A stretch of DNA of 64,000 bases, taken from a virus. Positions 11,181-63,595 of this stretch are shown here, one piece after another. The notes beneath the pieces are model-generated. The model was not told the DNA's origin and ran no database searches. It saw only the letters and a program-made list of their open reading frames with translations. The stretch lies in the IMG/VR virus record IMGVR_UViG_3300045988_122518, one strand, 5' to 3'. Each line of letters opens with the position of its first letter. Position 1 is the first letter of the stretch. Both the position numbers and the translations under genes were made by a program.

Positions 11181-11401
11181 TGTGGATTTACTGGAAAGAA
11201 CAATGTAATTATTGTTCTAATTATGAAAATTGTTCTTATTATAATAAAGCTCAAGAATTAATTTCTAAATTAGATAATATAGATAGACATACAACAGGTG
11301 TTTATGGAACATTAAAATGGGCTTGTGATTATTTTATAGTTGATGAGAATAAATATTATAGATTAAACCCTGGAGACTGTGAAAATGGAATTAACTCGTA
11401 A
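11180..11401 (+). CDS. Cys-rich hypothetical protein
   Basis: Intact 73-aa ORF; start overlaps the upstream stop. Confidence 0.4.
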   Translation: MWIYWKEQCNYCSNYENCSYYNKAQELISKLDNIDRHTTGVYGTLKWACDYFIVDENKYYRLNPGDCENGINS

Positions 11402-31814: not shown

Positions 31815-34800
31815 TCACTTTATAATAGGCTCTTCTTCAAAATTCGCTCTATTAGATATCATTGCTTCATAAATAGTGTGTAAAGTATTTTTAATACTTT
31901 CACCATAACTAGCAACATAATAATATCTAAAACGACCTGTGTATCCATTAGCCACTGTAGGCATACCAGTTTGACGAGGAGTAAAAATATTGCCAGAGCT
32001 ATCTGCTGTAATTTGTTTAATTGGATGTTTATTAGTACCAATCTATACTTGAATAGCGCCAGTATAACCTTTAAACTAATTACCAGACATATTTAAAATT
32101 GTCTGACCAGAAAATGCATTTATATCAAAATTAAGAATACCGTCTTTGCATCCCTCTATAATTAAATTATAAGGAGAATAAGAACCCATCTTACTTTGAT
32201 AAAATGCTTGAGCTCCAAAAGTCAAACCTTCAGTAGAAGAAGAATAAGGAATTATGTTATTACGACTTAAAGGACATTGATAAAATGCTTTAGTACCAAT
32301 TTTCTTTAAACAATCACTGAATTGGAAATATTCTAATCCACTATCTAAAATAAAGGCATAATCATCTATTACAGAAATTTTATTACTATCTTTTGGAGCA
32401 AAGAATATAGCAGTAATATTAGGATTTACTTGAATACCAACTGCTGCTGAGGGGTTAACTTGGCTATATTTAATTCTTGTAATTGGCTAACCATTATAAG
32501 TTGTAGGTAAAGTAATTTTGCCTTTTAAATTCTTAGCTAAGTCAGTCATTGCAAATGATAATTCTCCATCAGAGTTTATAATATCATAATATTTATGAGT
32601 AGAATCATTAGTTAAAATATTATTATAAACACTAATGGGTTCTCCAATAGCGTAAAATTCGCGATCAGCATAGGCTAGTTGTTTAGTTAAATCAATTTTA
32701 ACTCCATCTTTATCCGCCCATCCCGTCTATCTCCAAGTCCATTCTAATGAGTCTTCGCCTTCTGGTAAATCAGATACTTCTGTATTATTAAAATAGTAAA
32801 ATTCTTCTGGAACAGTAATCCTTTCACCATAATTAAATACTTTCTTTACGGTTGAATCATCAATAACACGATCGCCATTAACAAAAGTAATTGTATAAGA
32901 TTTACGCTCAAATCTCGCTTTAAAAATATAATCTATTTTTTTATTAGATTCTTGTTCTGTGGGAAAAGATAAAGAATTCCAGTTATTTTTTAAAATAGTA
33001 TCCTTTTCATCTACATTTTTTCCAACCGTAATTATTAATTCTCCAGTATCATCTTCCCAACCTTTAAAATCATAAGTAGGCATTTTTTCTTGTAAGCTAC
33101 CAAAAGAGATATAAGTTTCACCCTTAGAGTCTGTTGGATCATCAAAGAATTTTTTACTAGTCGATAATGACAATTTCTAAGTTTTTAAAATTTCTTGAGT
33201 TAGCACTCCGTCCGCATTTTTCTGTTCAAGAACAAATTTAGCAGAATATTCTTTTTTAACATTTTTTACAAAAATAGTCAAATTAGGATAAATACTTTGC
33301 AGTTCTTCTTGAATCACATGTTCTTCTATCTCTTGAGCATTTTCAATATAAATAACACCAGTTATATTAGGATGGGTCTAGTTAATACCTTTGAAATAAA
33401 CCGGAGCTTTATTATATAAATTACGCAATAAAGTATAATCAATAATTTTATTATGAATATCATTATATCCATTTATATTATTATCATAATAATAAATTAA
33501 ATTATTCTTTATTTCACTTGGGGTAATTTTACTTATATCTTCTACATCAATTTTTTCTAATTGGAAGTGTCCATTATCTTTATAATACTCAATATTGCTA
33601 TTCAATTCTGTTTTATCATCATTTAACAGTCTATAAGGACTCCATTGGACATTAGTTAAATTAATTTCGCATCCCGTTAAATTACTCTTTTCACACCCAA
33701 GATAATAACGTCTTAATAATTCATAAGAATAATAATCTAAATTGCCACCACGAATATCAAAAGTTTTTATACTTGTTGTAATTGCAGTATCTCCAACATC
33801 TGTTAGATTCTTAATATATAATCCCTTGTTTTCTTCCGCAACCTCAAGACGATTAGTAATAGGATTAACTGTAGGATGTACATATGTAGTAACTAATTTA
33901 GTTAAAAGATTTGCTTCTATTAAACTTAAGTAATTTGTATAATCAGTTAAATATAAAGTATTTAAAGCGACCCCTTCCGCAAACTGAACTTTAGTAACAT
34001 TAGAACCGGTATTTCTAAAGTTTTCTAATTTTTCACTTTTAGTTAAATCTAAAGCTACTGGATTTAAAAATTTAATATTGCAAAGATTCATTTCTTTTAA
34101 TAGAGGCATACCTTCACTAGGATAACTCCAATTATTTACATCATTATTTTTATATTCTTTCCCTTGCTCAGAAAGACCATCATATCCTAATAGTAAATCT
34201 ACTAATTTATTAGCTTTACCTCTAATGAATAATTCTTGGAAATATAATTTACTTAAATCTCCAAGAGATTTCATTTGCTCTAGTCCGTAAATATAATATA
34301 ATTGTTCACGATAATTACCACTTGACATAATACCTTTTTTTAAGTCGGGGGCAGTAAATCTAACCGGAGTTAAACCATCATATTTCTAAGATGGGAAATT
34401 TGCTCCGTCTGTTCCAACAGTGACATAAGAACGACGTGCTGGTTCCATCTCAATCCAATATTCACCATCAAACATATGATTTTTAGTGCCAAATTCAACC
34501 CCATCTTTCCAATAAGGAGAATTTGGTATTAAATTAGTTAATCCCTAATTATTAGTTCCTTCAATCCATTCATCAGATGTGGTATTTGGATTATTAGCAG
34601 AAATACGACTTATAATATTATTACTACCACTATCTCCAGAATATTCATCTACTGTTAACCAAGAGTCAATATAATTAAGACGATTAGTTAAAAATTGAGA
34701 ACGATAAAGATTGCGGTCGCCCTATAAAGCATAAAAATACTAATCAGTTTCTACTTCATACTAACCACCATTAGTAATACGACCAAAAATAGTGTCCTTT

Positions 34801-37800
34801 GCTGCTGAATTAGTCGGAATAATATATTTATATTCTTCATCTAAATTTAAAGCAATAATAGGACGCTCTCCCTATACAGCATAACTACCCGGGAATAAAG
34901 AAGGATCTGTTTTATACCATTTATCAACAACATCACTCTTTTTAGAAGAAGTTCCAGACTCTTTCTTAAAAATTTGTTTTACTTGACTCTAATCATAAGA
35001 TCCATTTGGCTTACCCATTAATTGTTTGTATTTATCAACAATTTTGCTCTTAAAGAAAGTATAGAAATTATTCCATAATACACTATCATTAGTAGAATAA
35101 CTACCATCTTCAGTAGCATCAACATAATATTCAAATGATGGAATACCAGTATTATTAATACCTAATTGAGTATCAATATCATAAAAAATAGGATACCAAA
35201 TATAATGTTGAATTCCAGTGACTTTTTCAATATTTCCTTTTTGAGGACCCCAAGAAGCAAACATTGCATTTTTACCACGAGAGTCATAACATTCAAAAAT
35301 CTCAGTCATTAAAAAATAAGTAGCTAAATATTCAATATTAAAATAATTGCTTAACTCATTTTTAAATTTAGCTTGACGATATTCCTTACTATCTTTATGG
35401 TAAGTAATTGAGTTATAAGTTATCGGTGTAGGTAATAACCATCTATCATCAATTTGGCTCTCATCTTCAATAAAAGAATAATAAGTTGTATAAGGATTAT
35501 ATTTTTCAGAATCTAAGATATAAATTTTATTATCCTAATTCTATAAAATATAGTATTTATTTATCTAATAAACTTTATTATCATCATCAGTTAATTTAAT
35601 TATACTATAAACTTTACTGTCTTTATTATAAATATAATATTTTTCTTCTAAATTAAAATCTTCAGTGGCAATTTTATAAGTTTCGCTACCATTTTCATCA
35701 ACTTTATCAAATAGATAATATTTATTTGGCTCATACTTGGCTTCAGCTAAATCTATTTTCTCATATTGACCCATTGAAGGAATTTCATATAAAACTCCAT
35801 CAAAATCAATGCTACAATCTAAACAAGTACTCCAAACCCAACTTACGGCGTCTTCCCAATTTGACATTAATGCAAGAAGTAATTCACGAGAAGTATTTCT
35901 ATTCTTCATATCAAAGATGATAGGATTTTGTCCTGGATTAGTAATAGTCCATTGTTTATGTTTAATGCCAGTAGAATTATCAATAATGGTTTCTGATTTT
36001 AATCTATCGGGAACTGTATTATTTATTGCGTCAGTAAATTCAATTATCTTGTTCGCGTCGGTAGCCTCCGCTGAAATGCACTTAAATAATTGGTCTGTGA
36101 TTAAATCATCATTAGAGTTATATCTAACTTCAAAAGAGTCAGCAACTATTGGAGCTCCGCCAGAAGTTAAGTAACCTGTTGAATTTTTATCATCCATTAA
36201 TGGAGGTCTAAAAGATAATTTATATCTATTCCAAGGATCACGGAAAGAACAATATGTTCTTGAATTATTCTAAAATTCCCAACATTCAGCAATATCTCTT
36301 ACTTTTGGAGTTCCATTAATTTGATTCTATAAAATCTTTTTATCAGGTTTAAATCCAAAACATTCATCAGACCCTTTATCTAATAACATATTATATTTTC
36401 CAATATAAATAATATCGTTTTCACTATATTCATTGTCATTAGTTGAAGGCCAATGAAATGCTAAAACAGGATATCCTTTCATAGAAGTTCTATAATCATC
36501 AGCATTTCCATATAAATCATATTTGTCAAAAGACTCTTGATAATCTTCTATTGGATGCTTAGAATAAGTTTCATTAACTAAATTAGCAAATCCTCTATTA
36601 TAATCTCCAGAAGATTCCATAAAATCAATTTTTAAAGTAAACTTAGTAGTACCAACAGTATTATTGTCCATATAGAAAAATTTAAGATAACTCTTACTTT
36701 TTGTATTTAAATTATTATTTGTTTCTTCTTCTTTATAAATAGATTCAAAAGGTCCTCTATTCATAAACATAGCTTCTTTACATTTAGCCTTATAATTACG
36801 TCTTGGATAATTACGAGAAGAAGTTCCCTAAACCTAAAATGTTGCTTTATCAAAAAGAGTTATAAAGCTGGGGCAATGATGTAAATAATAATTCTATACC
36901 GCAGTATATTTTATTTCCTTAGTTTCTTCATCTATTACTGGTTTCCAGCCCTCTTTTTCAACTATTTTATCAAGTTCGCCCTTAGCATAAGCAATATCTA
37001 ATGGGACATTTACGAATTCCATAGTTCCTTTTTGAGCACCATTCTCTTTAGAGTATGGAAGTCTATTATCAGTGCTTTCACTATTATTTTTAGTAGTTTT
37101 TAAAATAATATATGGCATTAATGGTTTATCACTATGGTCAGTATTGTAATCAAGCATTTTACGATAAGAAAATACGTAATCATTTAAAATAGTATTATAA
37201 TCATATAAATCTTTTTGATCCCATTGATTAATATCTTTTTTATCAAAAGCATAATTCTAAACTACGTCAGGAATAGTTAAGCTAGCATCATAAACTCTAA
37301 TACTATAAATATCAATATCACAAGTATTAGACATAAATTTAATCACATCAGAATCAATTGTCCAAGCAGAATTACTAGATTTATCAGAACGACGAGCTAC
37401 ACTAGTTAAAACACCGTTTAAAAAAATTTCTAATAATTTAGAATCTCCACCAGTATGACCAGGCTTAGAACTTGTGTAAACAAATGTTAAATATAACATT
37501 TCATCTTCTACAAAATCAACTGAAACAGTCTCTTCATCACCATTAGCTGTAAATACAGCATCTTGAGGGCTAAAATAAATACCTAAAGGATTTTTTAAAG
37601 AACCGTAAGCACAAACAAGATTATTTAAATTAAAATCTTGATCTAATCCATTATAAGTTAATTCATCATAACTTGGTGCTTCTGGATGTTCTGGTAAATA
37701 TTTTTTTGTTAAGAATTCATCATAATTAACATAAATAGACTAATCTTTAAATGCATTCCAGGCGTCTCTATCAGTCCAAGATTTTCCAGAATCATCACTT

Positions 37801-39533
37801 GCTTTATAACGAGTATACTTTGTAATTACTTTAGAATAATTTTGTGGATTTCTAATTTTAAATTGAATCTCAATACTATGAGTAGGAGTAGAAGAACTAT
37901 TATCAAAAGATAATGATCCAATAGGAATAGAGACTTCAGCTCCATTACTGACTCTTAAACAAGTAGTATTATTATCATCAAAAACCCAACCATTATTATA
38001 CCAATTAAAATTTTTAAATTCCGCATATTTACCGTTAATCTCTAATGTTTCACGGCTTAATTTGCTCTCAGAATTAGAACGTCCAGTAGCAACAAAATTA
38101 ACTTTTAAGTCATTGGCTCTAGCTAACTCCATATTTCTCAATGGATCTATTTTAATTGTAAAAGTAAAATTACGAGAATAATCATATGGTTCAGTTCCTA
38201 CCTTAATTGTATAATAAGAACTATCATTAACAGAAAGATTAGTAATTTCCCAATATTGCCATATAGTCTAATCAGCAATTTCACGAGTACTTAATAAGAC
38301 ACCGTTTTTATACAAACTAACTTTCGCAATTATTACATTGGGATCATATACTCTAAAAGGAATTCTAATAGTTTCATAAGTGTAATATTCAGTTTTAAAA
38401 TCACCAGTCCAAATTAAAGGAGTTTCACTACTTTTATCTAAAATAACAATTTCTTTCTCAATAAAATCAGTACCATTTCCTTTTTCACCGCTGTTAACTA
38501 AATAAAGTTTAGCTTTAATAGTATGTTCTCCATGAAGAAAATAATTTGCTAAAGTTATTGTAGAATCATTATTATTATTTAAAATAATTGTATTCTTTGT
38601 TATAGTAACACTATCTTCATTTCTGGTATTAGTATTATCATATTCTTTATCTAAAACTAAATAATTATCAAAATAAACTTCAATAGCACTATTTACTTTA
38701 TTAGACATCAACCAAGTAACATTAATCTAACCATTATCAAAAGGTAAATTATTATTAAATTTACTTTCCTACCACTAAAGAGTTAATTCATGAGTAGTTA
38801 TAAATTGAGTTTTCTTAGTTGTAGAAAAATGATTATTAGTAGGGTCACTATTTTTACTAACAATAAACTCAATTTCATGTGTGGAAGATTTTCTTAAATG
38901 AGCAGAAATATCAATAGTAATTGGTTTATTATGTTGATAAGTTTTTGCTTCACTATAAATATCTTCCCAAGAACCATCACTCTTTTTCTATCTAATAGTT
39001 AAAGTACCTTCAACAGAATCAAGAACTGGATCTCCGTTTATTGTTCTACATTTTACAAGCGCGGTTACACTTACTGATTCACCATTAAGCACATCAGTAG
39101 GACCATCTAAAGTTAAAGAAACAGTACCATTTACTTTAATTTCTTGGTCTTGGTTTCCACCACCTGCCAATAATTTTTCACAACTTGCAACTTTTTCTTT
39201 ATCATCATTTAATTTAAATTTTTTAATACGATAAAATGCTCCATCGCTATTTAAAATTAAATCATTTATATGAGGATTAGAACTTGATAAATTAGATAAA
39301 TGAATTGAATATCCAATTGGATTCTCATCTGCATCATAATCAATTTCAACTTCTTTTTCAGTTCCGTAAATTACCTAAACTCCACTTGAACCTATCGGTA
39401 TTTTATTCTCAGTCGCTGTATCTAAATAAACTCGTCCTGTGTCTGTTGCTACATAAAAATATCCATCAGTTTGAGGATATGCCTTTATTTTTTCTTCTGG
39501 GCCCTAAACAGGACGAAAACGTATCTTAGACAT
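31815..39533 (-). CDS. giant structural ORF of about 2572 aa (tail/baseplate megaprotein) containing dozens of in-frame TAG codons
   Basis: RBS GAAAGGAG then ATG 39533. Ten tracked - strand ORFs (38988, 38268, 37740, 37257, 36894, 36327, 35565, 34989, 33378, 32727) all share frame 0. The junctions at 36198-36326, 35310-35564, 34329-34988, 33174-33377 and 31815-32726 were traced codon by codon and contain only TAG. The other junctions were read less rigorously, so an undetected TAA/TGA would split the ORF into two or three genes. Confidence 0.45.
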
Positions 39534-50007: not shown

Positions 50008-53000
50008 TTAACCTGTTATTTCTTTTCCATTGAGAGTCAATGAACCATTTATTACAACGGGACCTTGTAAATAGATAGACCTATCAGTCACATTAAGATA
50101 ATTACCAGTTCCTCCCATTAAGCCAATTGTGCCATTAAAAATAGTTAAATTGGGAGTAGAAGAATATTCAACAGAAGGACCTAAATAAATATTACTACTA
50201 TTTTTATAATTCAAAATTTTTGATAAATAACTTAAATCATCTACCGCACTCTATGCATTAGACGCAGCATTGCTAGCTACTATAGAAATTGAAGCAGCTG
50301 TTTCCGCTACATCCGCGGCTGCATCTGCTGCCTATTGAGCTTTAGTAGCAGCAGCCCCCGCCGCGCTAGCGGCACTTTTAGCTTCAGCAGCAGCGCTACC
50401 AATTGCATTTAATATATCACTTAATGATTTTTCTCCCGCTCCATACTAAATATACCAAGGCTATCCCGTAGAACCATTATAATTAATTTTAATATTATCA
50501 CTAAAAGTACCAGACTAAGCATAAATTTTACCATTTAATAAATCTAAACTTAACCCTGTTATTACACTAGCTCCAGACTCATTATAAGTATATTCAAAAT
50601 CTTTAGATTCTATAATACTTGAAGTTCCATTAATTATAATCTATCCTGTGCTAGATTTACCAAAAGTAGCAGTTCCGTCATCTTTTAAAGCATAAACTTG
50701 ATATCCATTATTATATCCATAAACCCCAGTATTATAAGAAATACTTGAATCTGCATTTTGTTTTGTTCCAAAATCACCTATTAATACTCCGGTAAAAGTA
50801 TTAGCATTTTTATCTTTTTTACCTGCAGCAATCTAAGCTACACCTAAAAAATTATTTTCTACATCAGTATAAAATTTTCCATCCCATTTATTTACCATAG
50901 CAGATGGATATTTATTCTATAATACTAAAATAGGCTACGTCCAAACTATCTTATTTCCCTATTTTCCTTGGACTCCATAAACGCTTACTCCATCAACATA
51001 AAAACTCATAGGACTTAGTCTATACTCTTTTTTATCTTCATTATAATTAATCTTACCGATAAAAGCATCATTAGAATTACTAGAATAAATACTCCAAGTC
51101 GCAATTTCATCTACTTCGCCATTTACAAATAATTTATAAGGCTCTTTAGAAAATGTAGGTTCACCATTACTTAAATAAATTACCTCTGTTGGACCATTTA
51201 TATAAGTATTATCTAAAGTTGTAATAGGAACTGGATAGTAAGCAGTTAAATCATAGTCTCCCCAACCAGATAATTTTACCTACAAAATAATTAAATTACT
51301 CATTATAGAGTTTGTAGTATTAACTCTTAACACACAATTCTAATTATTAGTATTCTATAAATCAACATTATTAACCGTTGATCCAGCCATAAAACTCCAA
51401 GTCCAATTACATTTTTCAAAATTAGTAATTTCTTTACCTTCATTATCATATAACTAAGCTCTAAAAGTATAATTATCTCTTACTCCACTTTTTATAGCAG
51501 TAAATACTTTATTATTTAAATTCTCGTGAGCTATCATATCAATTACCAAAGTACAATCAGTGCCATTAGTTCCTACCTATCCAAAAGTGAAATCTTTAAT
51601 GGAGGTATAAACAATACCATCTTTTTCTACTTTAGCAATTACGGTATTATTAGATTTATTACTACTATAAAAAGTATTAATAGTATAATTTAAAGAAAAT
51701 TCTCCAGGAGAAACATTGACGTTTTCATTAGTTAAATCAATAATAATTTCTTTATAAGTAGCATCAGTTCCATCATCTTTAATACCAAAATTAAGCATAG
51801 TATTTTTAATAGGAATTTGCCAAATTACTCTCTAAGCTTCAACTAATTTACTTTCTCCATCCTAATTTTTACCAATTATACCATTATTAATAGCATAAGT
51901 CTTAGAATCAAAATGCAAAGTTAATTTACGACTAATCTTTCCATCTGATCTATTCATCAAATAATTAGCCTAATTATAAATTAAATAATTACCATTAGTC
52001 TAATCTTCACAGTGAATAGACAAAGCATTTAAACTATCAATAGTCGCATCATTAGGAACTTGTTTTTCATTATTAAAAGTAATTATATTACTTCTATAAA
52101 CTTTTCCATTATATAAAATAATTACTTTAACCTATTCTTGATTTTTATTAGAGCGCGGTTTTAGCTAATAATAAAAATTATTTTTATTATCTTCAATCGC
52201 AGTCCAATAGACACCAGAATATTCGTCCGCGGAAGGTGCTCCAAATTCATACGCATACCAGCGAACTTCAAATGTATCTTCTTTTTTATGTTCAGTTATT
52301 TGAGTTCTATTGCCATCTTCATCAAAATGAACCCATTTCAATTTAATAGTTTTAGAATCAATCTAACCTTTATCATCAATTACATAAGTACTTCCATCTA
52401 ATGAATACAGTCTTACATATTCATTTTCTATTTCATCTGCGGAAATACCTAATCCCATATATATATCTTTTACAAAGATATTATTAGGCGGAATTGACAT
52501 ATTGAAATCATTGGCATAACTAATTAAATTATTATTACTATCTTTAAAATTATCTTTTTGATATAAAAATATTTTTATATTATATATTTTAGCTACTGCG
52601 CTAGTATCAATAACAATTTCTTGAGAATAATATCCTTCAAAATTATAGGGATTGCCATACATGTCATTAGTATCTAAATCAATGGATGCGATTAAAGGGG
52701 TTTCTCCATTATTTTTGATACTTGCTTCTATTTTTTTAATATTATCCGCAGTATCATCTTTAATACCATATATATTTATTTTTAATCCATAATTACCACT
52801 TATTACACCGAGTGTTTCAAGCCAGGCGCGGAAATCGGCACGCAGCCCCAACCGCGTAAATCCCTATTGCTCATCAGTAAAGGTAATTCCGCCATTTGGA
52901 GTAATCTCAATTTCCTCTTCATTACCATTAGCTAAGATACTCCAAATTTCTTTATTATTATCTTTGGCAATAAAAAAATTACCAGTTAAATCAATAAAAG

Positions 53001-53325
53001 TATTAAAAGGATTGACAAAATTATATGGTTTATTTTCATTTTTATCTGTCTTTTTACCGACAATAAATTTAGTGCTATTATAGTCTCCTTCTGGAATCTA
53101 TACATACACTTTATCGCCTTTGTTATAAGTGGTTATTTGGGAATAAGCATAAAATTCCGCATAAGATTCATTTTTGACCTTATACTTACCAATAAGTTTA
53201 TCAGTCGCATCAATAATAGTACATTCAATGGTACTATCAAATTTAACTTTGTCAACACTTGAATTAGCAATAATACTCATTGCTTGACATAAACTTTCTT
53301 GAATATTTAGTGCGTTATCAGCCAA
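50008..53325 (-). CDS. large tail protein directly downstream of the tape measure gene (1105 aa, TTG start, Ala-rich linker, many TAG); Dit/Tal-like by position
   Basis: RBS AAAGGAGGG then TTG 53325; tracked ORFs 53098, 52363, 51577 and 50008 all share frame 1; the 52852-53097 junction was traced; ends at TAA 50008-50010. Confidence 0.5.
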
Positions 53326-53395
53326 AATAATCCCTCCTTTTACTCATTACTCTATAATTTTCTAAAAAATTAATTAGTTTTATTCAATATAATTA

Positions 53396-53440
53396 CCCAA
53401 AAAGAAAAAGGGTGAAGCCTATAAGACTTCACCCTTAATT
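53396..53440 (-). terminator. terminator hairpin after the tape measure gene (AAGGGTGAAG / CTTCACCCTT)
   Basis: 10-bp stem then a U-rich tract on the - strand immediately after TAA 53441. Confidence 0.5.
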
Positions 53441-56400
53441 TTATTTTCTATTGGCATATTGAGAAGCTACATTAACTAATGTATTAAATGCTTCTTGAAT
53501 TTCGTATCTATCAGTAGCGTTCGGGAAACTAGCTTCAATTCTAACATTCTATTCTAATGTTCCATCTTGAGAACTAACAGTAAATCCAGAAGAAGAAAGG
53601 GTAGAGATTTGTTGACTATTGAAATCTAATTGTTTAGCGATCTATCTAACTAATTGGATAGAAGCTAACATATTTTCCGTATCATCAGCATTAAGAACTA
53701 ATTCTTTCTAATGTAAGAACGCTAATTTTCCGCTATCATTCCAAGTGCCAGTATAACCACCACTTCTAAATCCGACTAAATCTCTCCATTCCTAATCAGT
53801 AAGCTAAGCAAAACTATATTTACCATTAGGAAGTTTACCAGAGATTTTTCCTTCACTGAGTAATTTATAATATGCATCAACTCGAGCCGTAGTGTCTTCA
53901 TTGATACTACCGCCATTAGCAATTTTTTCTTCGCGGTTTCTTTTATATTGATTATATTGCGCGGAACCATAAGCCACAGTGCCCATCATGGCCGCCCAGT
54001 CAGTATCTCCACCACTATCGCTACCAAATCCACTTTGAGAGCGTAATGTCGCTTGAATAGCGTTCAAAAGCTCTTCATAAGCTCTAATAGTATCAAGTAA
54101 TTGCTGACGATGTTGTGCCCAAGCTTCAGTAGCACTACGGACAGAACTTAACTCACCTTCAAGAGCAGGAATAACTCTATTAGATACTTCTTGATAAAGT
54201 TTATTACTTTCATCAGTAACATCTTTAACTTTCTATTGAGTATCTTTTAAATCATCACCAACAATTTTACTAATTTCATCCATACTGTCTTGCCATTCTT
54301 TAAATGTATCATTGATAATATTAGTGTTTTCAGTAATGGTATCTTTCCAACTATTACTATTATCTTTGATAATATCAAAAGAATTTACCCAAGCGTCTTG
54401 AACAACTCTACTATCCTCTTCTTGTGCTTTTGCATAAAGATTTCCAGCAGTAGTAATTAAATCAGTATATTGTTGAATTACTAAAGCACGTTCTTGTTGA
54501 TATGTGGTCTCACGGTAAACAGCATCTTCCGCGGCTTTCTAATCAAGTTCCGCGAGCTTCTCAGCCAACTCTTTCTCATATTGAAGTTTTTGTTGACCAT
54601 ATTTATTTGTCGCATCAAGACGAATATTATATAAATCATTTTCCGCGTCCGCCAAAGCCTATTGCGCGTCATTTACTTTCTCTTGGTCTGCGGTATACAC
54701 ATAACCAAAATTACCCTCATTATCACGTTGTAATCTAACTGTGGATTTTGCGTTTTGAGCTTCCTCTAATGCAATTTGCGCTTCAAGCACTTTATATTTA
54801 GCCTAAGCAATTTCTAATTCTAATTGACTTAATTTATCTTTATCTCTTAACTACTCAATTTCTTTAGTAAATTGCTGGTATCTATTTTTAGCTGCTTGAT
54901 TATTTGTCTTATCAATAGCCTAATTAACATTATTAAGTAGTTTATTCATTTCATAAATCTAATTAGTTTTTGTTAAGTATTCATCTTGATAAGAAGACAT
55001 TCTATCCAAAGCATCATTTAAAGCATCCCAACCGGAAATATTAAAGTTATTACCATTAATACTTACTTTAGTAGTGCTTAATTGCTTATTCATTTCATCC
55101 GCAGCTTGTTCCATCTTTGTAGTAAGAATTTCTTTTAATGCTTCACCATATTCTTCCGCTTTAGAAAGCATATCTTCTTCCGCTTCATCGAACGCGGCTA
55201 ATATAGCATCATAATTCTTTTGAAGCACTTCGCGTTCAGCCTCATCAGTTGAACTGGCTAAAGCTGCGGCCGCTGCATCGCGCTCACGCTTCAAGCTTTC
55301 GTACCATTGTTTAGAAGTATCAAAATTATTTTTCTTAGTCTAAGCAGTTCCATTTAAAACTGATAAAACTTTATCATAATCTTTATCTTTACCTAACAAA
55401 GTAATAATAGAACGATAATGATCTAATACACTAGTTAAATGCTCCATATGATTTGTATATTTAGACAATTCATCATTTGCTAAATCTATAGTATTACCAT
55501 AATATTCAAGCATTTCTTTATCTAAATCCTACAAAGCATTTAAATTATCTAATGTATTATCATATACATCTTGTAAGCCTTCGATATAATTTTCTTGAGA
55601 AATTTCTCCATTAGAATAAGCATTGTTTAACTAACCATAGAAATTTTCATAAGTTCCTAATTGGCTAATTACTGGATCAAATTGACCTTGTAAATATCCA
55701 AGAGCTTCAGCAGCTTTATAAATATTATCACTTAATTTATCGAAATAATATTCTAATTTCTTAGTATCATTTTCATCTAATTGAATTTTTACTTCAACTT
55801 CATAAATTAATTTTTCATAATGTAATTCTTGAACTGTATTCTTTAAATCAATTAAAGCTTTTTCTTGCTCTTTTAATTTATCTAAAGTTTCTTCATACTA
55901 CTCTAAAGCTTCTCTCTATTTATCAGTAGTAGCTTTATTATATAAAGCAGTATAATTATCGATTTCTAATGTTTCCTTATTAAAAATTGCCTATCCGCCG
56001 AACTGTTTTTGAACTTCCTACCGATCTACAGCTACATTCGCTAAAATTAAATTATACAACTAAGACTATAAATCAATCAATTTTTTATTAGCTTCAATTT
56101 CTTGATTTATATTATCAATTTTAGCTTTTCCATAAAGTTTATCTTTGCTATCCGCTAATTTATCTAAAAGTTTTTGATAATATTGAATTTCACGAGTTAT
56201 TTCATGATAGCGCTCAGCGACTTTTTGCAATTCTTTAGCAGTATTAGATGCATTTTTTCCAAGATTTTTAAAAGCATTATTAGTCTTTAAAACTGATGCT
56301 CCAACAGAAGCAATCATCCCGCGGATGTCATTTGCCTATGCCATAGTAGAAGCATAAAGGGAATTATAAGTAGCCGCAATTTTAGCCCAAGTTTCTTTGG

Positions 56401-59400
56401 AAGTATTTTGTCCATCTGCTAATGCTTTATCTAACGTCTTCTATGCATCTTCTAAGACTTTTGCTTCAGCACTAACACCTGTTGACCCTTTATAATCAAC
56501 CTAGAATTTTCCTTCTAGTTTTCCCTTTCCATTTCCGCTAACTGCTTTTTTCATATTATTTATAGCAGTATTAGCAAAATCTACAGAATTCTATGCTGCT
56601 GATTTAAAAGCTTTCTACCAATTTTCCGCTACAACTTTAGCATTATCTTTTGAAGAATTGGCAACAATTTCTTGATTATCAGCCTATGTATCAGCTGTAT
56701 CTTTACTATTTTTTGATTCTAATTCAGCTAAATTACCAGAGATACTACTCCTAATAGCCGCAGATTCCTAAGCACTTAAATTTTCAGCTGTGGCAAGAAT
56801 TTCTGCCAAATGAGCTATATTTTTATAATTTACAGCTTTCGCTTCTAATAAAGTAGCCTAATTATTTAACTATTCGACAGTAGCTTCAGCGTCAGCAGCA
56901 ATTTCTGCTTTAGCTGCATCAAAGCAATCTTTAACAACACTTTCTTTTAATTTAGCTGATCCATCTTTAGCTATTGTCATTCCTTCAATAATACCAGGAA
57001 AAACATTATTTAATTCTCGAATGTCATCAGCAGCAACACTATAATTAGGACCAATTTTAGAAGCCTAAGTATTCATATCTTTAATAGCATTTGTAATACT
57101 ATTAAATTCTTGTTCTGCTTGGCCATGAACTTCAACATTTATACTATATTGCTAATCTGCTAATTCATCCATAGAATCTTTAAATTTACTAAGATCAGCC
57201 TCTACAGTAACATTTACTCCTTCTTTTTTATTTATGATCTATAAATTTTGTCGAAGTTCTTTAAGAAGTTTATCTGAATCTTTATTTAAATCATTTAATT
57301 TGATTTCAGCCATTTTATCTTGGACTTGTTCTAAAGCTTCATAATAAGTTTGACTACCAGCATTCCAAGTATGAGATAATTCTAAAGCCGCAGATTCTAA
57401 TTCAGGATATTGTTTTTTTATTATTTCTAATTGCTATATCAAGTTAGAATAATCTTCATTAGAAGAAATATTTTCTTGAGTAACATCTCCACTCTATAAT
57501 CCACTAATTAAATTAGAAGCGTTTTTTTCGCCCGTTTTGGCAGCGTCAACAATTCTCTAATTATAATTATCAGGATTATAATTATTTAAACTATTTTCGA
57601 ACCCTTCTAGCCAAGCTTCTCCATCATTTAATCCTAAAGATTCCATTTGTTCTTTAGTTAATCCTAAAGCTTCTGCAAATCCATCTGATCCAAGTTGTTT
57701 TAATTCTTCAACCTAATCAGGAGATAATTCAGATAAAATAGAAGTTAAATCTAAACCACTTTCGGCATTTGCTAGACTATCAAGAATTGCCTATGAAAAA
57801 TTAGCACCAAATGTTTTATCAAAAAATTCTGTTTTCTTAAGAAGGTTTTCAATAGATTTATCAAATTCTTCTAAATTATAAGAATCATTATTCTCTAAAG
57901 AATTAAAAATTTCATCTGTTGCTCTTTTCCTAGCGATCTATTCTCGCATATAGGAATCATTTTCGTCTTCAAAAAGGACAGTTCCGTTTATATTCTTTAA
58001 AGTTCCTTTTCCAGTCCCACCACTATAAATATATTGACCTAACTCTTCTTCTGTTAATCCTAAAACTTCTCTTGCATAAGCTTTTGCTAATTCTTTATCA
58101 TTATCTATATTTAAATCAGCATTATTATTATGAGCTGGCAAAGTTAAATTAGTAAAATCTTTACCACTATTTTTAAGAATTTGACGCTAATATCCTGCTT
58201 CAGCAGCATAAATATAATCCTATAAAACAGTATTATCAGTAATCTTTTCAACTCGTCCAGAATTATTTTGAATATTTTTACTTTTTAATATTTCATTACT
58301 ATAATAATCAGTAGCTTTAGTAGCTTCAGTAATACTATCTGCTAAATTAAAGAAAGCATCACTACTTTCCATAATTTTATCAATGCTCTCAGAATAAAAC
58401 GTTGTATTTTCTTCTAATTTTTGTCTTAAAATTTCATCCTAACTCTTATGAGTTTTTATACTTTCTTTCTATGCTTCAATAGCAAATTGAGTAATTAATT
58501 CAATTTCACCATTTGTAATTGTGCCAGAATTTCCTTCTCGCTTTACTTTACCAATATTTCTACTTAAATCAGTATTAGAAACTTCTTTTTTAGCAGATTC
58601 AACATCAATTTTAGCACTCTACTAAAGAACTTTTATATTATTTGCAGTATCATTAATCTTCTTTTGAGCTTCTTCAATAGCTCCTGTATCAAAAACAATT
58701 AAGCCATCTTTAATTTCATATTTATCCCATAATCTATAAGTTTCAATTAGTTCTTTAGCTTTCTCATTAGCTGATTCTAAAGAATCTGTATATTCCTATG
58801 TTTTTTTATCTAACCCATTAAGCGCTTCAACGGCTGTAGTATAATCATTAGCTTTATTTTTAAATTCTTCAATTGATGAAGTTAATTCATTGTATTTTTC
58901 AGTTAATTTTTCTACTGTTTCACTAGCAGATTTTAAATTATTATCTGCTTTATTATATTCATCTATAGCAGATTTAATAATAAACACTAAAGCACCAATA
59001 GCGGCTCCAACCAAAGCTATTGACCCTAAAGATTTAGTAAATACCTTAATTGCTAATTTAAAAGCTGCTACTCCTTTTAAAGTAACTAAATTTAACGCTT
59101 CTTGTTCTAAGGCCTATCCATTTAATCCAACAGCAGTCATTAAAGAACTAGATAACATTCCCATATTAGCAATTGAAGTTTTATTTAAAGAATTCATTAA
59201 TAAGGGTAAGGCAATAGATAAAGCAGTTACGGTTGAAAGTAATTTATCTCCAATACCAATTTCATCATTATTCCATGTATCTACAATTCCTTTTATAGAA
59301 GTTATTGCCATAGCAATACTGCTTAATCCCTAAGCAAAAGAAGCTACTCCTGCTTCTGCTGAAGGTAATACTCCACTAAAAGAATTTATAGTATTAATAT

Positions 59401-61747
59401 ATTCTTGATTAGCATCAGTGGCTCTATTAGTAGCCTATACATTATTAAGAATTTCAATAACCATAGAAGAATATGAATCTTGTAATGAATTAATAGTATT
59501 TTCAATCTGTTCTTCAGTCATCTAAGTGCCTTCTAAAGTACTTCGTAACTATGAAAATGCTGAATTGGCTTCATTTTCTGTAATAGTAATTAAACTATTT
59601 AACTAATTTCTAAATTCTTCAGTTGTATTATAAGTCCCATTAAGAATATTATCTAAACTATTAAAAGACATCCCTAACTAAGAAGTTTTATCACAAACCT
59701 ATTGGAGTTTCTCTTTTAATTCATCTAAATTTTCGATATCTCTTGTAGCACTTTGGAAATCATCTAAAACACTAGATAAAACAAAATTCTGTCTAGTAGA
59801 ATTTACCTAAGATCTATAATCCTAAACATTCCCTTGTTTCATTCTAACTTGCGTTTCAAGCTATCTTTCTAATTGACGAGTTATTTTTTGCTATTGTTCT
59901 AAATCTTGAGCACTCTTAATTGCTCGTTCTCCAAGTTTTTCATTAATATCTATAATAAATTTAGCCTAAGCCTATTCTTCTTCAGTCAACTGACTCCCCT
60001 AAGCAATTAATTCTCTTTGTTTCTAAATTAAAACATCTTGTAAATTAGCCTACTAAGTATAAATATCACTACGAGTAGAATAATCAGGTCCCTAATCAAC
60101 ATTATCTGCCATAATAGATCTCAATTTATTATTAGCTTCTTGACGCATTTTTACAATTTCATTTATTCCATTTTTAGAAGAAATTTTAATATTATACATC
60201 ATCCGTTGAATAGATTTTGTAATATCATTCCCGAATACTTTAAATCCAATAGTTCCAATAATAGATAGAACTCCAGGCAGTCCTCCTAATGCTTTAATTA
60301 GCTAGCTAATAACATTTAATAATTTTGCAAAAATATTAGTTAATTGAATAAAAGCCTTATCATCCAATAGCTAATCATAAATAGTTTCCAAAGAAGCAGT
60401 AACTCTATTTTTAGCAGCTTCCCAAGATTCTGCGTAAACGTCAGCTTGCTCCTGAAGAGATCCATCAGCATCCTAAGCTTTAGTAAGATTTTCTTTATAA
60501 TAATCAAAATGATCCATCAAAGCAATTAATTGAGTATATTGACGAACACCCGCAACCTATTGTGCTAAAGCTACTTGCTAATCTTTATCAATACTCTGCC
60601 ATTTATTACCCATTTCTTCGATAATATTATCCATATCTTTTAATTCACCGTTAGAATCTTTAATATTAATTCCAACTTTTTCAAGAGCCTATGAGTATTG
60701 ATTTAATGTAGTACCATCTTCTAAAGTTTCACCAAGTTTTAAACCTTGAATACGAGCAAAGATCGTTTTTAAAGCAGTACCTACAACATCTTCACTTTGA
60801 CGAGTAGTAGCAGTAATAGTGGCTAAAGCTGCTGCTGCATTATCAAAACTTAAACCAATTGTACTAGCAACCGCTGCAAATTTTTCAAGGCCACCAGCAA
60901 TCTCATCAGAACTAGAAGCGGTATCCGCACCTAAACGCACCATAGCATCAGCATAATGCTCTAATGACTAGCTTCCATCATAAAAATTATTCCAGACAGC
61001 AGTCATTTGATCTGAAACAATTTCAGCACTTTCACGAGCCACATTTGCCATTTTTATAGTGATGTCAGTACGTTCTTTTACCTATTCATCATTTAAACCC
61101 TACTGATAATAAATTAAGGCTGCGTCAGTATATTTAGTAGTTGTAGTGCTTAACTCTTTAGCAGCTTTATTTGCCTAAATTGCAAATTTTGCCATCTAAT
61201 CTGCATTTTGTCCAGTAACGATACGAATATTATTTAAAGATTCATTTAAATCCTAAGCATAATAATAGGCAGACTATATTGCTCCCATAAAGCCATGTAA
61301 AATACTTGAAGATATTTGCCAACGAGCAGTATTAGCTAAAGTAGTTCCAAATTCTTTTAATAAGGCATTACTTCTTTTTAAGGGCAACTCTGCTGTAGAA
61401 ATAGATTTTGCTAAATTAGCGAAAGCCTATTCGCCTTCTCTACCTAAAATTTGTAGCTAATCTCCATACTCGCTAATAGTTCTTCCACTTTTTTTTAATG
61501 ATTGATTAAATTTTCCTAAATCAATAGTCCCCGCCTCTGTTCGGCAAGTGACTAACATCCCTTGTAATTCACTAACATAAGGCAAGGCTTTTTGAATTTC
61601 TTGCGATAAACTTAAATTACCATAGCTGTTAACATTTTTTGTTAAATTATTAAGCTATTCTTGTAAATCTTTCAACTATTGTTGAGCCTATTTAGCATCA
61701 GCAGTAAATTGTAAATTAACCTAATAACTATTTAATTGTTTAGCCAT
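53441..61747 (-). CDS. tail tape measure protein, 2768 aa, recoded with dozens of in-frame TAG
   Basis: RBS AAAGGAG then ATG 61747. Nine tracked ORFs between 53804 and 60943 share frame 2. The C-terminal 120 codons were traced to TAA 53441-53443 and contain the TMP-type motif FRSGGYTGTWNDSGKLAFLH.KELVLNADDTENM. Long coiled-coil-rich sequence throughout. Confidence 0.7.
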
Positions 61748-61779
61748 AGGAATCTCCTTTCTCTCCAATTTTTACTTTG

Positions 61780-61828
61780 CAAAATAAAAATAAAATGGGG
61801 ATAAGAGCAATTATACTCTTATCCCCAT
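61780..61828 (-). terminator. terminator-like hairpin (TGGGGATAAGAG / CTCTTATCCCCA plus U-run) between the chaperone-like gene and the tape measure start
   Basis: 12-bp perfect stem followed on the - strand by TTTTATTTTTATTTT. Confidence 0.45.
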
Positions 61829-61871
61829 CACTCTATTATTTTTCAAAAAATAATATTATTAACTAATTTAA

Positions 61872-62405
61872 TTAGCCCAATTTAGTAAGTACGTCTTTCA
61901 ATAAAGCCATATTATCTGGATCATTTAACTTCTTTTGAATATCTGTTGCATCCAAATCTAAATTACTATAATCCGCGGAAATTGCTTCCATAATACCCAT
62001 CGCAGAATTGCGATATGACACAATATTATTAGCCATCTCGTGAGTCGTTTTATTTAAATAATAAAATTCTCCATCAGGCACAAGACCAATAATAAGATTA
62101 AGCACTTTAGAAGCATTAAGCATATCGTAAAGCTTCATTGGATCTTCTTTTTGCTTTTCAGTAAATGAAATATTACTATAAGCATAAACAATCTCTAAAC
62201 CAAGATTCATATCTAATTTTAAAAGGTTATAGTATCCAGTATTTTCATCCACTGAATTATTCAATACACGAGTAATCAATTCACTCTTTTCCGCGATAGG
62301 AAGATATTGCTTTACTTCAATAGTCTAATCATTGTATTCAACAGTTTGAACTTTATTAAGTTCATCCTTAGTAATTCCTAATTTATTATATGAAATTTTA
62401 GCCAT
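61872..62405 (-). CDS. putative tail assembly chaperone (177 aa, one TAG), by position upstream of the tape measure gene
   Basis: RBS AAAAGGAGG then ATG 62405; tracked ORF 61872-62279 extended through one TAG; ends at TAA. Confidence 0.4.
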
Positions 62406-62453
62406 AATTAGCCTCCTTTTACTCTTTATTATATTATACAAAAAATTTTTTAT

Positions 62454-63595
62454 TTAGTCAATTTTAAAATGCGTTTACCAATAGCAGTTTCAACTAAATT
62501 ATCTATATCTTCTTGAATTAAATTATCAAATTCATTAAAATTTGATATTTCAGTCTCAAATTGTTTAAACAGAATTTTTGCCTAAGTATCAACATCCTAA
62601 GATTTTAAACTATTTATTATAGTTCGCAAAGACTAAATTCTTTCTTTAAACAAACTTTTTATTTTTTTACCAGTAGTTTTTAACTATATATTATAAACTA
62701 CCTACATGGTTTTAGGATCAACAATAATAATATCTCCACCAGTATACCAACTTATATGATTTTTAGAATCTATTAATAGCTAAGGGAAATGGCCTTTTAT
62801 TCCGCCCTCTTGCTCGTAAACAGAAACAGTATCTTTATTTCCAGAATTCAAATTTATCTGTTCTATTCCACTTGTCTTTAAATAATTATAAATCCCTCTT
62901 TCATAATTAGCCATATGATTCATAAAAGCATCATAAGCCTACCCTAAACCTTGCCCTCTATAATATCTATTTAAATTAATTTTTCCAGTTTTTTTAGATG
63001 TTGAACCATAAAAAGCCTAAGCCCAAGTGGCGCCAGTTAAATGATGATTTTTTTCTGAATAATAACTTACTAATTTACTTTTATAATATCTATATAAATA
63101 ATGTGCTTCTTCTTTACTAATAGACTATCCTAATTGAGTTAAAAAACCATTTAAATGTAAATTTAAAAAATTCTAAACTTCTTGAGCTTTTAGCGCGGTT
63201 TCCATAGCACTTGATACAGCTTCACCCGCAGTATCAATACCCCATTCTTTACCTCTTATCTATTCAGCCATATTTTGTTCTAGAATAGTTGAAATTTCAG
63301 CAGACTAATTTTTTGTTCCACGATAAGCAACAATTAATTCCAATGATTTTTTATTTAATAAAACAACTTCTTGGAACTTCTTCCATTTAGACTAAAATTC
63401 TAATGCCATTTTAGGAGTAACTACATCTCCTTTAATTCCATTTAAAACTTTATCTAAATCATTAATAACTGAATTAATTTCTGCTCCATTCTTTTCACAG
63501 TATTCTTTAAAAATCTATAAAAATAATTCTTCATTATTAACAAATATATCTCCAAATATTATACCTTTTATTTTACCATTAGTATTAATTACCAA
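62454..63595 (-). CDS. hypothetical tail-region protein (about 380 aa, TTG start, about 12 in-frame TAG)
   Basis: RBS AAAGGAGG then TTG 63595; read through TAGs to TAA 62454; protein-like sequence throughout, but the frame was not coordinate-verified. Confidence 0.35.

What the first reader, a model, noticed from the sequence alone, without database searches (positions are those of the whole stretch)
53441..61747. Exceptionally long tape measure gene (about 8.3 kb, 2768 aa)
One frame-2 reading frame runs from RBS/ATG 61747 to TAA 53441, bracketed by terminator hairpins. It has the C-terminal GG-Y-TG ... AFLH-x-E-LVLN motif typical of tape measure proteins. Scaling at roughly 0.15 nm per residue implies a tail of about 400 nm, among the longest known. 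The gene is also the most heavily TAG-recoded in the window.
Basis: partly seen in the sequence, partly recalled or inferred. Interest (0 to 1): 0.6.

Follow-up and report, generated by a model that had tools for sequence, protein, structure and literature searches.

The report
Long TAG-recoded phage tape measure gene
This is a real 2,768-residue tail tape measure gene of an uncultured gut-type phage that reads the TAG stop codon as glutamine; it predicts a tail of about 400 nm, but that size is normal for its group of large phages of Gram-positive bacteria, not record-breaking.

Summary
The minus-strand frame 61747→53441 has 2,768 sense codons, 84 in-frame TAG and no TAA/TGA before the final TAA (chance about 1e-84). 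It has a GGAG ribosome-binding site and a terminator-like hairpin on each side. TAG columns align with CAA/CAG in relatives, so TAG = Gln.

The protein is a tape measure protein (TMP): PF10145 and TIGR01760 score above their cut-offs, only 16 prolines occur, and three membrane-like hydrophobic segments are present. The last 111 residues (GGYTG…AFLH.KELVLN…) form a module found only in TMPs of large Firmicute siphoviruses (SPβ, Tsamsa, Lactococcus 949, Enterococcus VRE9/EF1). Relatives place the gene after SPβ-type head and tube genes.

Three calibrations from that group (0.140–0.153 nm/aa) predict a tail of 388–423 nm. "Exceptional" is overstated:
- Cultured relatives have TMPs of 2,285–3,276 aa.
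- phAss-1 has 3,149 aa and P23-45 has 5,002 aa.
- 59 of 74 full-length metagenomic representatives with the same C-terminal module are longer than this one.

No peptidoglycan hydrolase domain was found. TAG use is highest here by count, not by density.

New here: residues ~471–1835/1976 are a replaced cassette. Seven unrelated alleles sit in a backbone that is 84–96% identical, and total length stays mostly within 4%.

The parts
53441..61747 (-). Tape measure protein gene: 2,768 codons plus TAA, with 84 in-frame TAG read as Gln
   Evidence: frame and stop statistics; PF10145, TMP PHROGs, TIGR01760; full-length relatives of 2,735-2,969 aa; TAG aligns with CAA/CAG
61754..61760 (-). Ribosome-binding site AAAGGAG, 6 nt upstream of the ATG
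   Evidence: Sequence; invariant in four relatives
61794..61829 (-). Terminator-like hairpin (16-bp stem, T run) between the 177-aa gene and the TMP gene
   Evidence: nearly invariant in relatives. SPβ yomI has an annotated stem-loop in the same position
53408..53436 (-). Terminator-like hairpin (13-bp stem, T run) directly after the TMP stop codon
   Evidence: stem kept in relatives, with changes in or next to the loop. SPβ yomI likewise has a stem-loop here
60260..61273 (-). N-terminal TMP domain: TIGR01760 at residues 159-496, with the PF10145 core at 193-400 (60548-61171)
   Evidence: E=2.3e-29, 103 bits against a cut-off of 33.2; E=3.4e-31, 108.6 bits against 28.8; 24% identity to YomI 311-689, E=8e-28; residues 201-400 are 94-100% identical to five of six allele representatives, 68-98% to the sixth
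60257..60313 (-). Hydrophobic segment 1 (residues 479-497)
   Evidence: Kyte-Doolittle 19-residue window of 1.66
59186..59242 (-). Hydrophobic, membrane-like segment 2 (residues 836-854)
   Evidence: all cassette alleles keep hydrophobic segments, with window starts between about residues 817 and 982
58976..59032 (-). Hydrophobic, membrane-like segment 3 (residues 906-924; Kyte-Doolittle 2.37)
55821..60335 (-). Replaced central cassette (residues ~471 to ~1835 or 1976). No nucleotide similarity to relatives L003-L005, and seven allele classes among the 120 closest homologs
57938..58141 (-). No domain found. It lies in a zone (1121-1400) without helical or strand periodicity, inside the variable cassette
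53444..55750 (-). Conserved C-terminal third (residues 2000-2768), 92-100% identical across all alleles
53444..53776 (-). C-terminal 111-residue module (VGFRSGGYTG...AFLHQKELVLN...FPNAT...ASQYANRK); proposed tail-tip anchor
   Evidence: YomI, 52% identity; invariant G, T, G, A, K, E, L... columns in 111 sequences; TMPs of SPβ-, Tsamsa-, 949- and EF1-like phages; 2,833 representatives; at or within a few residues of the C-terminal end
61872..62405 (-). 177-aa gene directly upstream; candidate tail assembly chaperone, by position only
   Evidence: Present at a fixed 177 aa in every relative; phrog_30570 of unknown function; no Pfam hit
50008..53325 (-). First tail-tip gene downstream (1,090 aa from ATG 53280; a TTG at 53325 behind an AGGAGG site is the likelier start)
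   Evidence: weak 'minor tail protein' PHROG hit; syntenic in relatives

Best explanation
This is the single tail tape measure gene of a large siphovirus that reads TAG as glutamine (code 15). Related contigs are about 190-200 kb. The virion module is distantly SPβ-like.

Shown:
- One uninterrupted reading frame, provided TAG is a sense codon.
- TAG stands for Gln.
- An N-terminal TP901/PhageMin_Tail TMP domain.
- A proline-poor body predicted to be almost all helix, with three hydrophobic segments.
- A C-terminal module specific to TMPs of large Firmicute siphoviruses.
- The expected position after SPβ-type tube genes and before tail-tip genes.

Inferred mechanism:
- The first TAG is codon 9 and four lie within the first 31 codons. 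The protein can therefore be made only once TAG suppression is active, that is, late in infection.
- The conserved C-terminal module docks in the tail-tip hub, where tail assembly starts.
- The YomU-like tube protein polymerises around the extended helical TMP until it reaches the N-terminal end. TMP length thereby sets a tail of roughly 390-420 nm.
- On infection the TMP is ejected, and its hydrophobic segments help form the channel across the membrane.

Unlike SPβ YomI, it carries no cell-wall hydrolase. The central ~1,400-1,500 residues are a spacer constrained in length but not in sequence, and they have been swapped between related phages.
For: Frame: 84 TAG, no TAA/TGA, P about 1e-84.

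TAG = Gln: at well-aligned TAG columns in five homologous genes, the partner codons are TAG 694, CAA 95, CAG 24, AAA 12, GAA 12. Gln codons make up 73.5% of the non-TAG partners.

Independent assemblies: relatives carry 74-87 in-frame TAG with no other stops, and measure 2,735-2,969 aa.

Family: PF10145 E=2.3e-29; TIGR01760 E=3.4e-31; TMP PHROGs to E=6e-71; YomI N-domain E=8e-28 and C-motif E=9e-13.

C-terminal module: in the 40 tblastn rows listed, the annotated feature under the match is a TMP gene or a mislabelled one. It occurs in 2,833 clusters, at or within a few residues of the C-terminus.

Context: YonD, YonB, YomW, YomV and YomU_Tube genes, then 62-aa, ~360-aa and 177-aa genes, then the TMP, then tail-tip genes. 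No sheath family appears among the recorded Pfam hits within 10 kb on either side.

Physical character: 16 Pro in 2,768 residues and three hydrophobic segments; 67% helix and 1% strand in the model of residues 1001-2200; helical amphipathic periodicity above the shuffle level in most windows.

Ruler: seven unrelated central alleles, six of them giving totals of 2,735-2,844 aa.

Calibration: SPβ 320 nm, Tsamsa 440 nm for 3,123 aa, phage 949 500 nm for 3,276 aa.
Against: - There is no virion image, proteome or transcript for this phage, so tail length and TMP incorporation are inferred.
- No suppressor tRNA was found in the window or in 10 kb beyond either end in relatives, about 84 kb of a ~197-kb genome.
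- The model of residues 1001-2200 has low confidence (pLDDT 40, single sequence). Its helix content is indicative only.
- Residues ~1121-1400 and ~2521-2660 lack helical periodicity. They may be compact or disordered, which would shorten the ruler by a few tens of nm.
- The strong hairpin directly upstream of the gene leaves open how the TMP is transcribed (read-through or its own promoter).
- The tip proteins show no BLAST-level similarity to SPβ.
- The role assigned to the C-terminal module has no structural match: Foldseek found nothing in the PDB or BFVD.
Confidence: 0.9

Rival explanations
1. The protein is a TMP with an embedded peptidoglycan hydrolase, like SPβ YomI/CwlP or mycobacteriophage TMPs, located around residues 1203-1270.
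For: The closest characterised relative, YomI, carries SLT (1425-1533) and M23 (1579-1674) domains in its middle. Residues ~1121-1400 here are the least helix-like part of the protein.
Against: Pfam, NCBIfam and PHROGs found no lytic domain, and a PDB sequence search down to E=1 found none either. All 120 closest homologs have PF10145 as their only precomputed Pfam domain. The stretch lies in a cassette that is 0-22% identical to the six representatives of the other allele classes, which does not fit a conserved enzyme. The whole protein has only 3 Cys and 15 His.
Confidence: 0.04
2. It is a TMP, but a sizeable part does not act as ruler (for example ejected cargo or compact domains), so the tail is clearly shorter than 390 nm.
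For: Two zones lack helical periodicity (1121-1400 and 2521-2660). The C-terminal model shows a small alpha/beta subdomain. In P23-45 the N-terminal part of the TMP is an RNA polymerase rather than simple ruler. YomI contains about 250 residues of enzyme.
Against: Calibrations that use whole-protein lengths within the same group already include such non-ruler parts and still give 0.140-0.153 nm/aa. Length is conserved across unrelated cassettes. Only 1% strand is predicted in residues 1001-2200.
Confidence: 0.15
3. The TAG codons are true stops, so the region is a string of short genes, a pseudogene or an assembly artefact.
For: Under table 11 the region breaks into ORFs of at most 111 aa. No suppressor tRNA was located.
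Against: The absence of TAA/TGA has a chance probability of about 1e-84. The same frame, with 74-87 TAG, recurs in many independent assemblies. TAG is exchanged with CAA/CAG. The TMP domain hits span several TAG codons. The whole late region of the window resolves into long ORFs only when TAG is read through.
Confidence: 0.01
4. The phage has a contractile tail, and this is a myovirus tape measure.
For: Only 10 kb on either side of the TMP was inspected in relatives, and several neighbouring genes have no annotation.
Against: The upstream genes match SPβ (siphovirus) families, including YomU_Tube, and no sheath family is among the recorded hits. In the 40 rows listed, the C-terminal module occurs only in siphovirus-type genomes (SPβ, Tsamsa, 949 and similar).
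Confidence: 0.04

Closest known systems
Bacillus phage SPβ YomI (CwlP), tape measure protein, 2,285 aa
   Same: Both have a PhageMin_Tail N-domain (24% identity, E=8e-28). Both have the SGGYTGT...GKLAFLH.KEL.LN motif, which lies about 100 residues from the C-terminus in each (52% identity). Both genes are bracketed by stem-loops. Both sit in a genome with SPβ-type head and tube families and a Pol III alpha replication module.
   Different: YomI has SLT and M23 cell-wall hydrolase domains; this protein has none. This one is 483 aa longer and TAG-recoded. Its tail-tip neighbours have no BLAST similarity to YomH, YomG, YomF or YomE.
phAss-1 group of human-gut phages (PMC10607447)
   Same: These are TAG-to-Gln recoded, compared with Spbetavirus in that paper, and have Pol III alpha. 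Their very long TMPs are interrupted by TAG in standard-code annotation. The N-domains are 33% identical.
   Different: The phAss-1 genome is about 136 kb and its TMPs are longer (3,149-3,209 aa). Only the N-domain aligns, so this is a different lineage.
TMPs of Tsamsa-like Bacillus phages, Lactococcus 949/phiL47 and Enterococcus EF1/VRE9
   Same: They share the C-terminal module (40-51% identity) and are long TMPs: 3,123 aa (Tsamsa), 3,116 (Izhevsk), 3,276 (949) and 2,673 (VRE9_1). Measured tails are 440-500 nm. Their genomes are large siphovirus genomes of 115-170 kb.
   Different: They use the standard genetic code and are cultured. No central similarity to them was detected: the full-length tblastn covers at most 34% of the query in any phage record.
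TP901-1-type tape measure (TIGR01760) and the lambda gpH ruler model
   Same: The N-terminal equivalog domain scores above its cut-off. The ruler logic, in which TMP length sets tail length, is established knowledge for lambda and mycobacteriophages.
   Different: This protein is several times longer than those classic model TMPs and has a different C-terminal module.
Thermus phage P23-45 TMP (5,002 aa, 800 nm tail)
   Same: A giant TMP setting a very long siphovirus tail.
   Different: The P23-45 TMP has an N-terminal virion RNA polymerase. No homology to it was detected here. It shows that 2,768 aa is far from the record.

Membership tests
Phage tail tape measure protein (TP901 / PhageMin_Tail type) | Match to PF10145 and TIGR01760 above the curated cut-offs | tested here: met
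   PF10145: 103.2 bits against a cut-off of 33.2, residues 193-400. TIGR01760: 108.6 bits against 28.8, residues 159-496.
Phage tail tape measure protein (TP901 / PhageMin_Tail type) | Position in the tail module, after the tube and chaperone genes and before the distal tail or tip genes | tested here: met
   In four relatives the order is YomU_Tube, 62-aa, ~360-aa, 177-aa, TMP, ~1,100-aa, 963-aa and 768-aa genes; the 768-aa protein hits phrog_1887 'tail protein'. The tube gene itself lies just beyond the window end.
Phage tail tape measure protein (TP901 / PhageMin_Tail type) | Long, mostly alpha-helical, proline-poor protein with internal hydrophobic segments | tested here: met
   16 Pro in 2,768 residues; three hydrophobic segments; 67% helix in a low-confidence model; helical periodicity.
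Phage tail tape measure protein (TP901 / PhageMin_Tail type) | Protein length proportional to tail length; protein present in virions | not testable with these tools
   There is no virion for this uncultured phage. Indirect support: length is conserved across seven unrelated central alleles.
SPβ YomI/CwlP-type TMP with lytic domains | SLT lytic transglycosylase and M23 peptidase domains inside the TMP | tested here: not met
   YomI has both. The window protein and its 120 closest homologs have neither.
SPβ YomI/CwlP-type TMP with lytic domains | Shared N-domain and C-terminal GGYTG / AFLH.KEL.LN module | tested here: met
   BLASTP E=8e-28 and E=9e-13.
Genetic code 15 (TAG = Gln) phage | In-frame TAG in conserved genes, with TAA/TGA kept as the only stops | tested here: met
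Genetic code 15 (TAG = Gln) phage | TAG positions correspond to Gln codons in homologs | tested here: met
   119 of 162 non-TAG partner codons are CAA or CAG.
Genetic code 15 (TAG = Gln) phage | Phage-encoded suppressor tRNA(CUA) | tested here: inconclusive
   No tRNA in the window, in four loci around the TMP, or in six loci reaching 10 kb beyond the window start. Rfam found nothing. About 113 kb of the genome was not examined.
Genetic code 15 (TAG = Gln) phage | Recoding concentrated in late or structural genes | tested here: met
   Replication genes have almost no TAG: Pol III alpha 0 and NrdD 1. The large structural ORFs on the minus strand between 41998 and 61747 have 9-30 TAG per 1000 codons.

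The most novel reading that the evidence does not exclude
The central ~1,400-1,500 residues of this tape measure are an exchangeable, length-matched cassette. At least seven mutually unrecognisable alleles circulate in one phage backbone that is 84-96% identical at the nucleotide level. Total lengths are held at 2,735-2,844 aa, with one allele at 2,969. In this reading, cassette replacement is driven by host or prophage defences that recognise TMPs during assembly or DNA injection (Tab-, SNIPE- or Ltp-like), while selection keeps tail length near 400 nm. That would be a natural experiment showing that length, not sequence, is the selected property of the ruler.
Probability: 0.35. Interest if true: 0.55.

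Novelty: new member of a known kind. Interest (0 to 1): 0.3.

Why it matters
The gene is a clean worked example of why code-15 phages must be annotated with TAG read as a sense codon. Under the standard code this 8.3-kb gene breaks into ORFs of at most 111 aa, and database 'proteins' of 110-350 aa turn out to be its C-terminal fragments.

It also places a widespread uncultured lineage of ~195-kb phages in the guild of SPβ-, Tsamsa- and 949-like long-tailed siphoviruses of Firmicutes, and it gives a testable tail-length prediction of 388-423 nm.

The more interesting point is the length-matched replacement of the TMP centre among close relatives. If defence systems that target TMPs drive this, these phages offer natural allele series for testing both the ruler model and TMP-directed immunity.

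Tried and rejected
- Megablast of the gene against 50,697 phage records found no match.
- A PDB sequence search found only noise, E >= 0.24.
- The single-sequence model of residues 1001-2200 was too poor (pLDDT 40) for a fold search.
- The C-terminal model (pLDDT 69.5) gave no Foldseek hit in the PDB and nothing significant in BFVD.
- BLASTP of the neighbouring proteins against the SPβ yomU-to-yomC region found nothing below E=0.3.
- Pfam on six neighbours found nothing useful.
- There are no internal protein repeats, no meaningful tandem DNA repeats and no 11-residue aromatic periodicity.
- The overlapping alternative-frame ORF 53380-53970 (196 codons open under read-through) was rejected. 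It is interrupted by TAA/TGA in three of four relatives and has no ribosome-binding site.
- The search for a suppressor tRNA failed: none in the window, in L001/L003-L005, or in six IMG/VR loci beyond the window start, and Rfam found nothing. An exact look-up of a window-edge protein also failed.
- I considered, but did not perform, a walk through the remaining ~113 kb of the genome, which would gain only 10 kb per scan.
- The clade name (for example 'Sapphire' or 'Jade' of Borges et al.; genome sizes) could not be assigned without their sequences.


Full report
**Observation**

Translating window 61747→53441 on the minus strand gives 2,768 sense codons and a terminal TAA. The 84 internal stops are all TAG; there is no TAA or TGA. 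The nearest upstream in-frame stop is TAA at 61774, so ATG 61747 is the only plausible start. It is preceded by AAAGGAG (61760-61754) with a 6-nt spacer.

With the strand's base composition, TAA/TGA should occur at 0.068 per codon, so a 2,768-codon run without one has a probability of about 1e-84. The other five frames contain 115-402 TAA/TGA each.

One detail needs correcting. The gene has the most TAG codons in the window, but not the highest density (30.3 per 1000, against 47.3 for 26200-26646 and 40.8 for 62450-63409). Nor does it have the highest share of Gln codons (0.42, against 0.65 for 50008-53280).

**The code**

Reading TAG as sense resolves the whole window into long ORFs. The plus-strand block at 1-23.7 kb has few or no TAG and includes DnaB, RecJ, Pol III alpha and the anaerobic ribonucleotide reductase NrdD. 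The large minus-strand structural ORFs are TAG-rich.

I aligned the gene with four homologous genes from independent metagenome assemblies (L001, L003-L005). Each has 74-87 in-frame TAG and no other stop. At well-aligned TAG columns the partner codons are TAG 694, CAA 95, CAG 24, AAA 12 and GAA 12, so Gln codons make up 73.5% of the non-TAG partners. TAG therefore encodes glutamine (code 15), as described for several gut phage clades.

No tRNA was found in the window, around the TMP in relatives, or within 10 kb beyond the window start in six IMG/VR relatives. Rfam gave nothing either. The suppressor remains unlocated, and about 113 kb of the ~197-kb genome was not examined.

**Identity**

- The recoded protein matches PF10145 PhageMin_Tail (residues 193-400, E=2.3e-29) and TIGR01760 tape_meas_TP901 (159-496, E=3.4e-31), both far above their cut-offs.
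- It matches eleven PHROG families annotated as tape measure, the best at E=6e-71. Two of those profiles are themselves about 2,650 positions long.
- It has 16 prolines in 2,768 residues and hydrophobic segments at 479-497, 836-854 and 906-924.
- A single-sequence AlphaFold model of residues 1001-2200 (from the 97%-identical P0001) has low confidence (pLDDT 40). It is 67% helix and 1% strand, with no compact domain.
- Helical amphipathic periodicity exceeds the shuffle level in most 140-residue windows. The exceptions are ~1121-1400 and ~2521-2660.
- There are no internal repeats.

**Context**

In relatives the gene order is YonD_N, YonB, YomW, YomV, YomU_Tube, a 62-aa gene, a ~314-367-aa gene, a 177-aa gene, the TMP, then genes of ~1,100, 58, 963, 768, 114 and 756 aa. 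These Pfam families are named after Bacillus phage SPβ virion proteins, and no sheath family appears among the recorded hits.

SPβ is a siphovirus with a flexible tail of 320 x 12 nm. In SPβ, yomI is likewise annotated with stem-loops immediately before and after it.

YomI carries SLT and M23 hydrolase domains. The window protein and its 120 closest homologs carry neither.

**The C-terminal module**

The last 111 residues form a conserved module with invariant or near-invariant GGYTG, A.LH.KELVLN and F-P positions across 111 diverse sequences.

By tblastn the module hits 80 phage records. In the 40 rows listed, the annotated feature under the match is a TMP gene or a mislabelled one. The genomes are large Firmicute siphoviruses: SPβ-like, Tsamsa-like, the Lactococcus 949 group, Enterococcus EF1/VRE9, Brevibacillus Sundance and Clostridium D-1873.

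A profile search of 1.84 billion cluster representatives finds the module in 2,833 of them (1,270 at E<=1e-30), at or within a few residues of the C-terminus. Many short 'proteins' of 110-350 aa that carry it look like C-terminal fragments of such TMPs, from short contigs or from standard-code gene calls that stop at TAG.

A model built with this alignment (pLDDT 69.5) shows a small alpha/beta subdomain, an extended low-confidence stretch at the motif, and two terminal helices. It has no structural match in the PDB or BFVD. By analogy with other siphophage tails I assign it the role of tail-tip anchor. That assignment is inference.

**How long, and how unusual**

Three calibrations come from phages with the same module:

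| Phage | TMP (aa) | Tail (nm) | nm/aa |
|---|---|---|---|
| SPβ | 2,285 | 320 | 0.140 |
| Tsamsa | 3,123 | 440 | 0.141 |
| Lactococcus 949 | 3,276 | 500 | 0.153 |

The size is ordinary for this group, however. VRE9_1 has 2,673 aa, FADO 3,080, Izhevsk 3,116, Tsamsa 3,123 and phage 949 3,276. The TAG-recoded phAss-1 group has 3,149-3,209 aa, and Thermus phage P23-45 has 5,002 aa and an 800-nm tail. Among the top 150 representatives with the C-terminal module, 74 are at least 2,000 aa long (median 2,935, maximum 3,579), and 59 of them exceed 2,768 aa.

**The suspected hydrolase**

Residues 1203-1270 (57938-58141) give no signal in Pfam, NCBIfam, PHROGs or the PDB. They are predicted as low-confidence coil and short helices. 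They also lie in a segment that is 0-22% identical to the six representatives of the other allele classes. There is no support for an embedded enzyme.

**The replaced cassette**

Relatives share a backbone that is 84-96% identical at the nucleotide level, including both hairpins and the intergenic regions (97-98%). Nucleotide similarity nevertheless vanishes between window ~60,335 and ~56,245 or 55,821, which corresponds to residues ~471-1835/1976.

Among the 120 closest homologs, the N-domain and the C-terminal third each form one cluster (median identity x coverage 93-98). Residues 600-2000 fall into seven clusters with a median identity x coverage of 7.6. Total lengths within the clusters are:
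- 2,735-2,737
- 2,738-2,747
- 2,744-2,750
- 2,767-2,770
- 2,827-2,835
- 2,833-2,844
- 2,969 (a single sequence)

All alleles keep a low proline count (14-24) and hydrophobic segments whose window starts fall between about residues 817 and 982. This pattern of sequence replaced, length kept and membrane segments kept is what a ruler-plus-channel protein should show. It is indirect evidence for the ruler function.

Defence proteins that recognise TMPs are documented: Tab and SNIPE. Defence escape is therefore a plausible but untested driver of the replacement.

**Verdict**

It is a new, uncultured member of a known kind: a long TMP of an SPβ-, Tsamsa- or 949-like siphovirus in a code-15 phage. 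The claims of exceptional length and of a hydrolase are not supported. The allelic, length-matched central cassette is the part worth following up.

Noticed in passing
window 62450-63594 (minus strand): This gene lies between the tube-side genes and the 177-aa gene. It is 319 aa from ATG 63409, or about 381 aa from the TTG at 63594 behind an AGGAGG site. It has the second-highest TAG density in the window (13 TAG, 40.8 per 1000 codons) and no Pfam or PHROG hit. It shows no nucleotide similarity in any of the four relatives, including the one whose TMP is 95% identical, and the gene at this position is 314-367 aa long in them. It looks like a second replaced locus next to the TMP.
   Followed up: partly
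window 50012-50627 (minus strand; 3' end of the 1,090-aa gene): The C-terminal ~200 residues of the first tail-tip gene lose nucleotide similarity in relatives L003 and L005 but not in L001 or L004. This suggests a swapped distal (receptor-binding?) domain.
   Followed up: no
window 53280-53325 (minus strand): The 1,090-aa gene downstream of the TMP probably starts at the TTG at 53325, which has an AAAGGAGGG site 7 nt upstream. The ATG at 53280 used by database gene calls has no ribosome-binding site.
   Followed up: no
window 31815-39533 (minus strand): A second giant ORF of 2,572 aa with 30 in-frame TAG lies in the structural region. It is possibly a tail fibre or host-recognition protein. 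It was not analysed.
   Followed up: no
window 1-23700 (plus strand): This is a replication and nucleotide-metabolism module: DnaB-like helicase (3873-5405), RecJ-like protein (7366-9114), SF1 helicase (11385-12578), Pol III alpha (12869-16882, 0 TAG) and anaerobic ribonucleotide reductase NrdD (17739-19847, 1 TAG). The near absence of TAG fits early expression under the standard code, and NrdD points to an anaerobic host.
   Followed up: partly
window (all); L001, L003-L005; L010, L018, L020, L022, L025, L037: No tRNA gene of any kind occurs in about 84 kb of this phage lineage, and no Rfam family is found in the window. The source of TAG suppression is unknown.
   Followed up: partly
window 53380-53970 (minus strand, alternative frame): A 196-codon stretch free of TAA/TGA overlaps the TMP 3' end and runs through the terminator. 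It is interrupted by TAA/TGA in three of four relatives, so it was judged an off-frame artefact.
   Followed up: yes
window 61657-61723 (minus strand; TMP codons 9, 20, 24, 31): Four TAG codons fall within the first 31 codons of the TMP, so under the standard code translation would stop after 8 residues. This fits the published idea that recoding locks late genes until suppression is available.
   Followed up: no
window 25031-25912 (minus strand): This 293-aa ORF has a Gly/Trp/Asn-rich, membrane-like N-terminus and a Cys-rich C-terminal tail (…CCCENK…, …GCGYGSGCGCNS). It has no Pfam hit and was not examined further.
   Followed up: no
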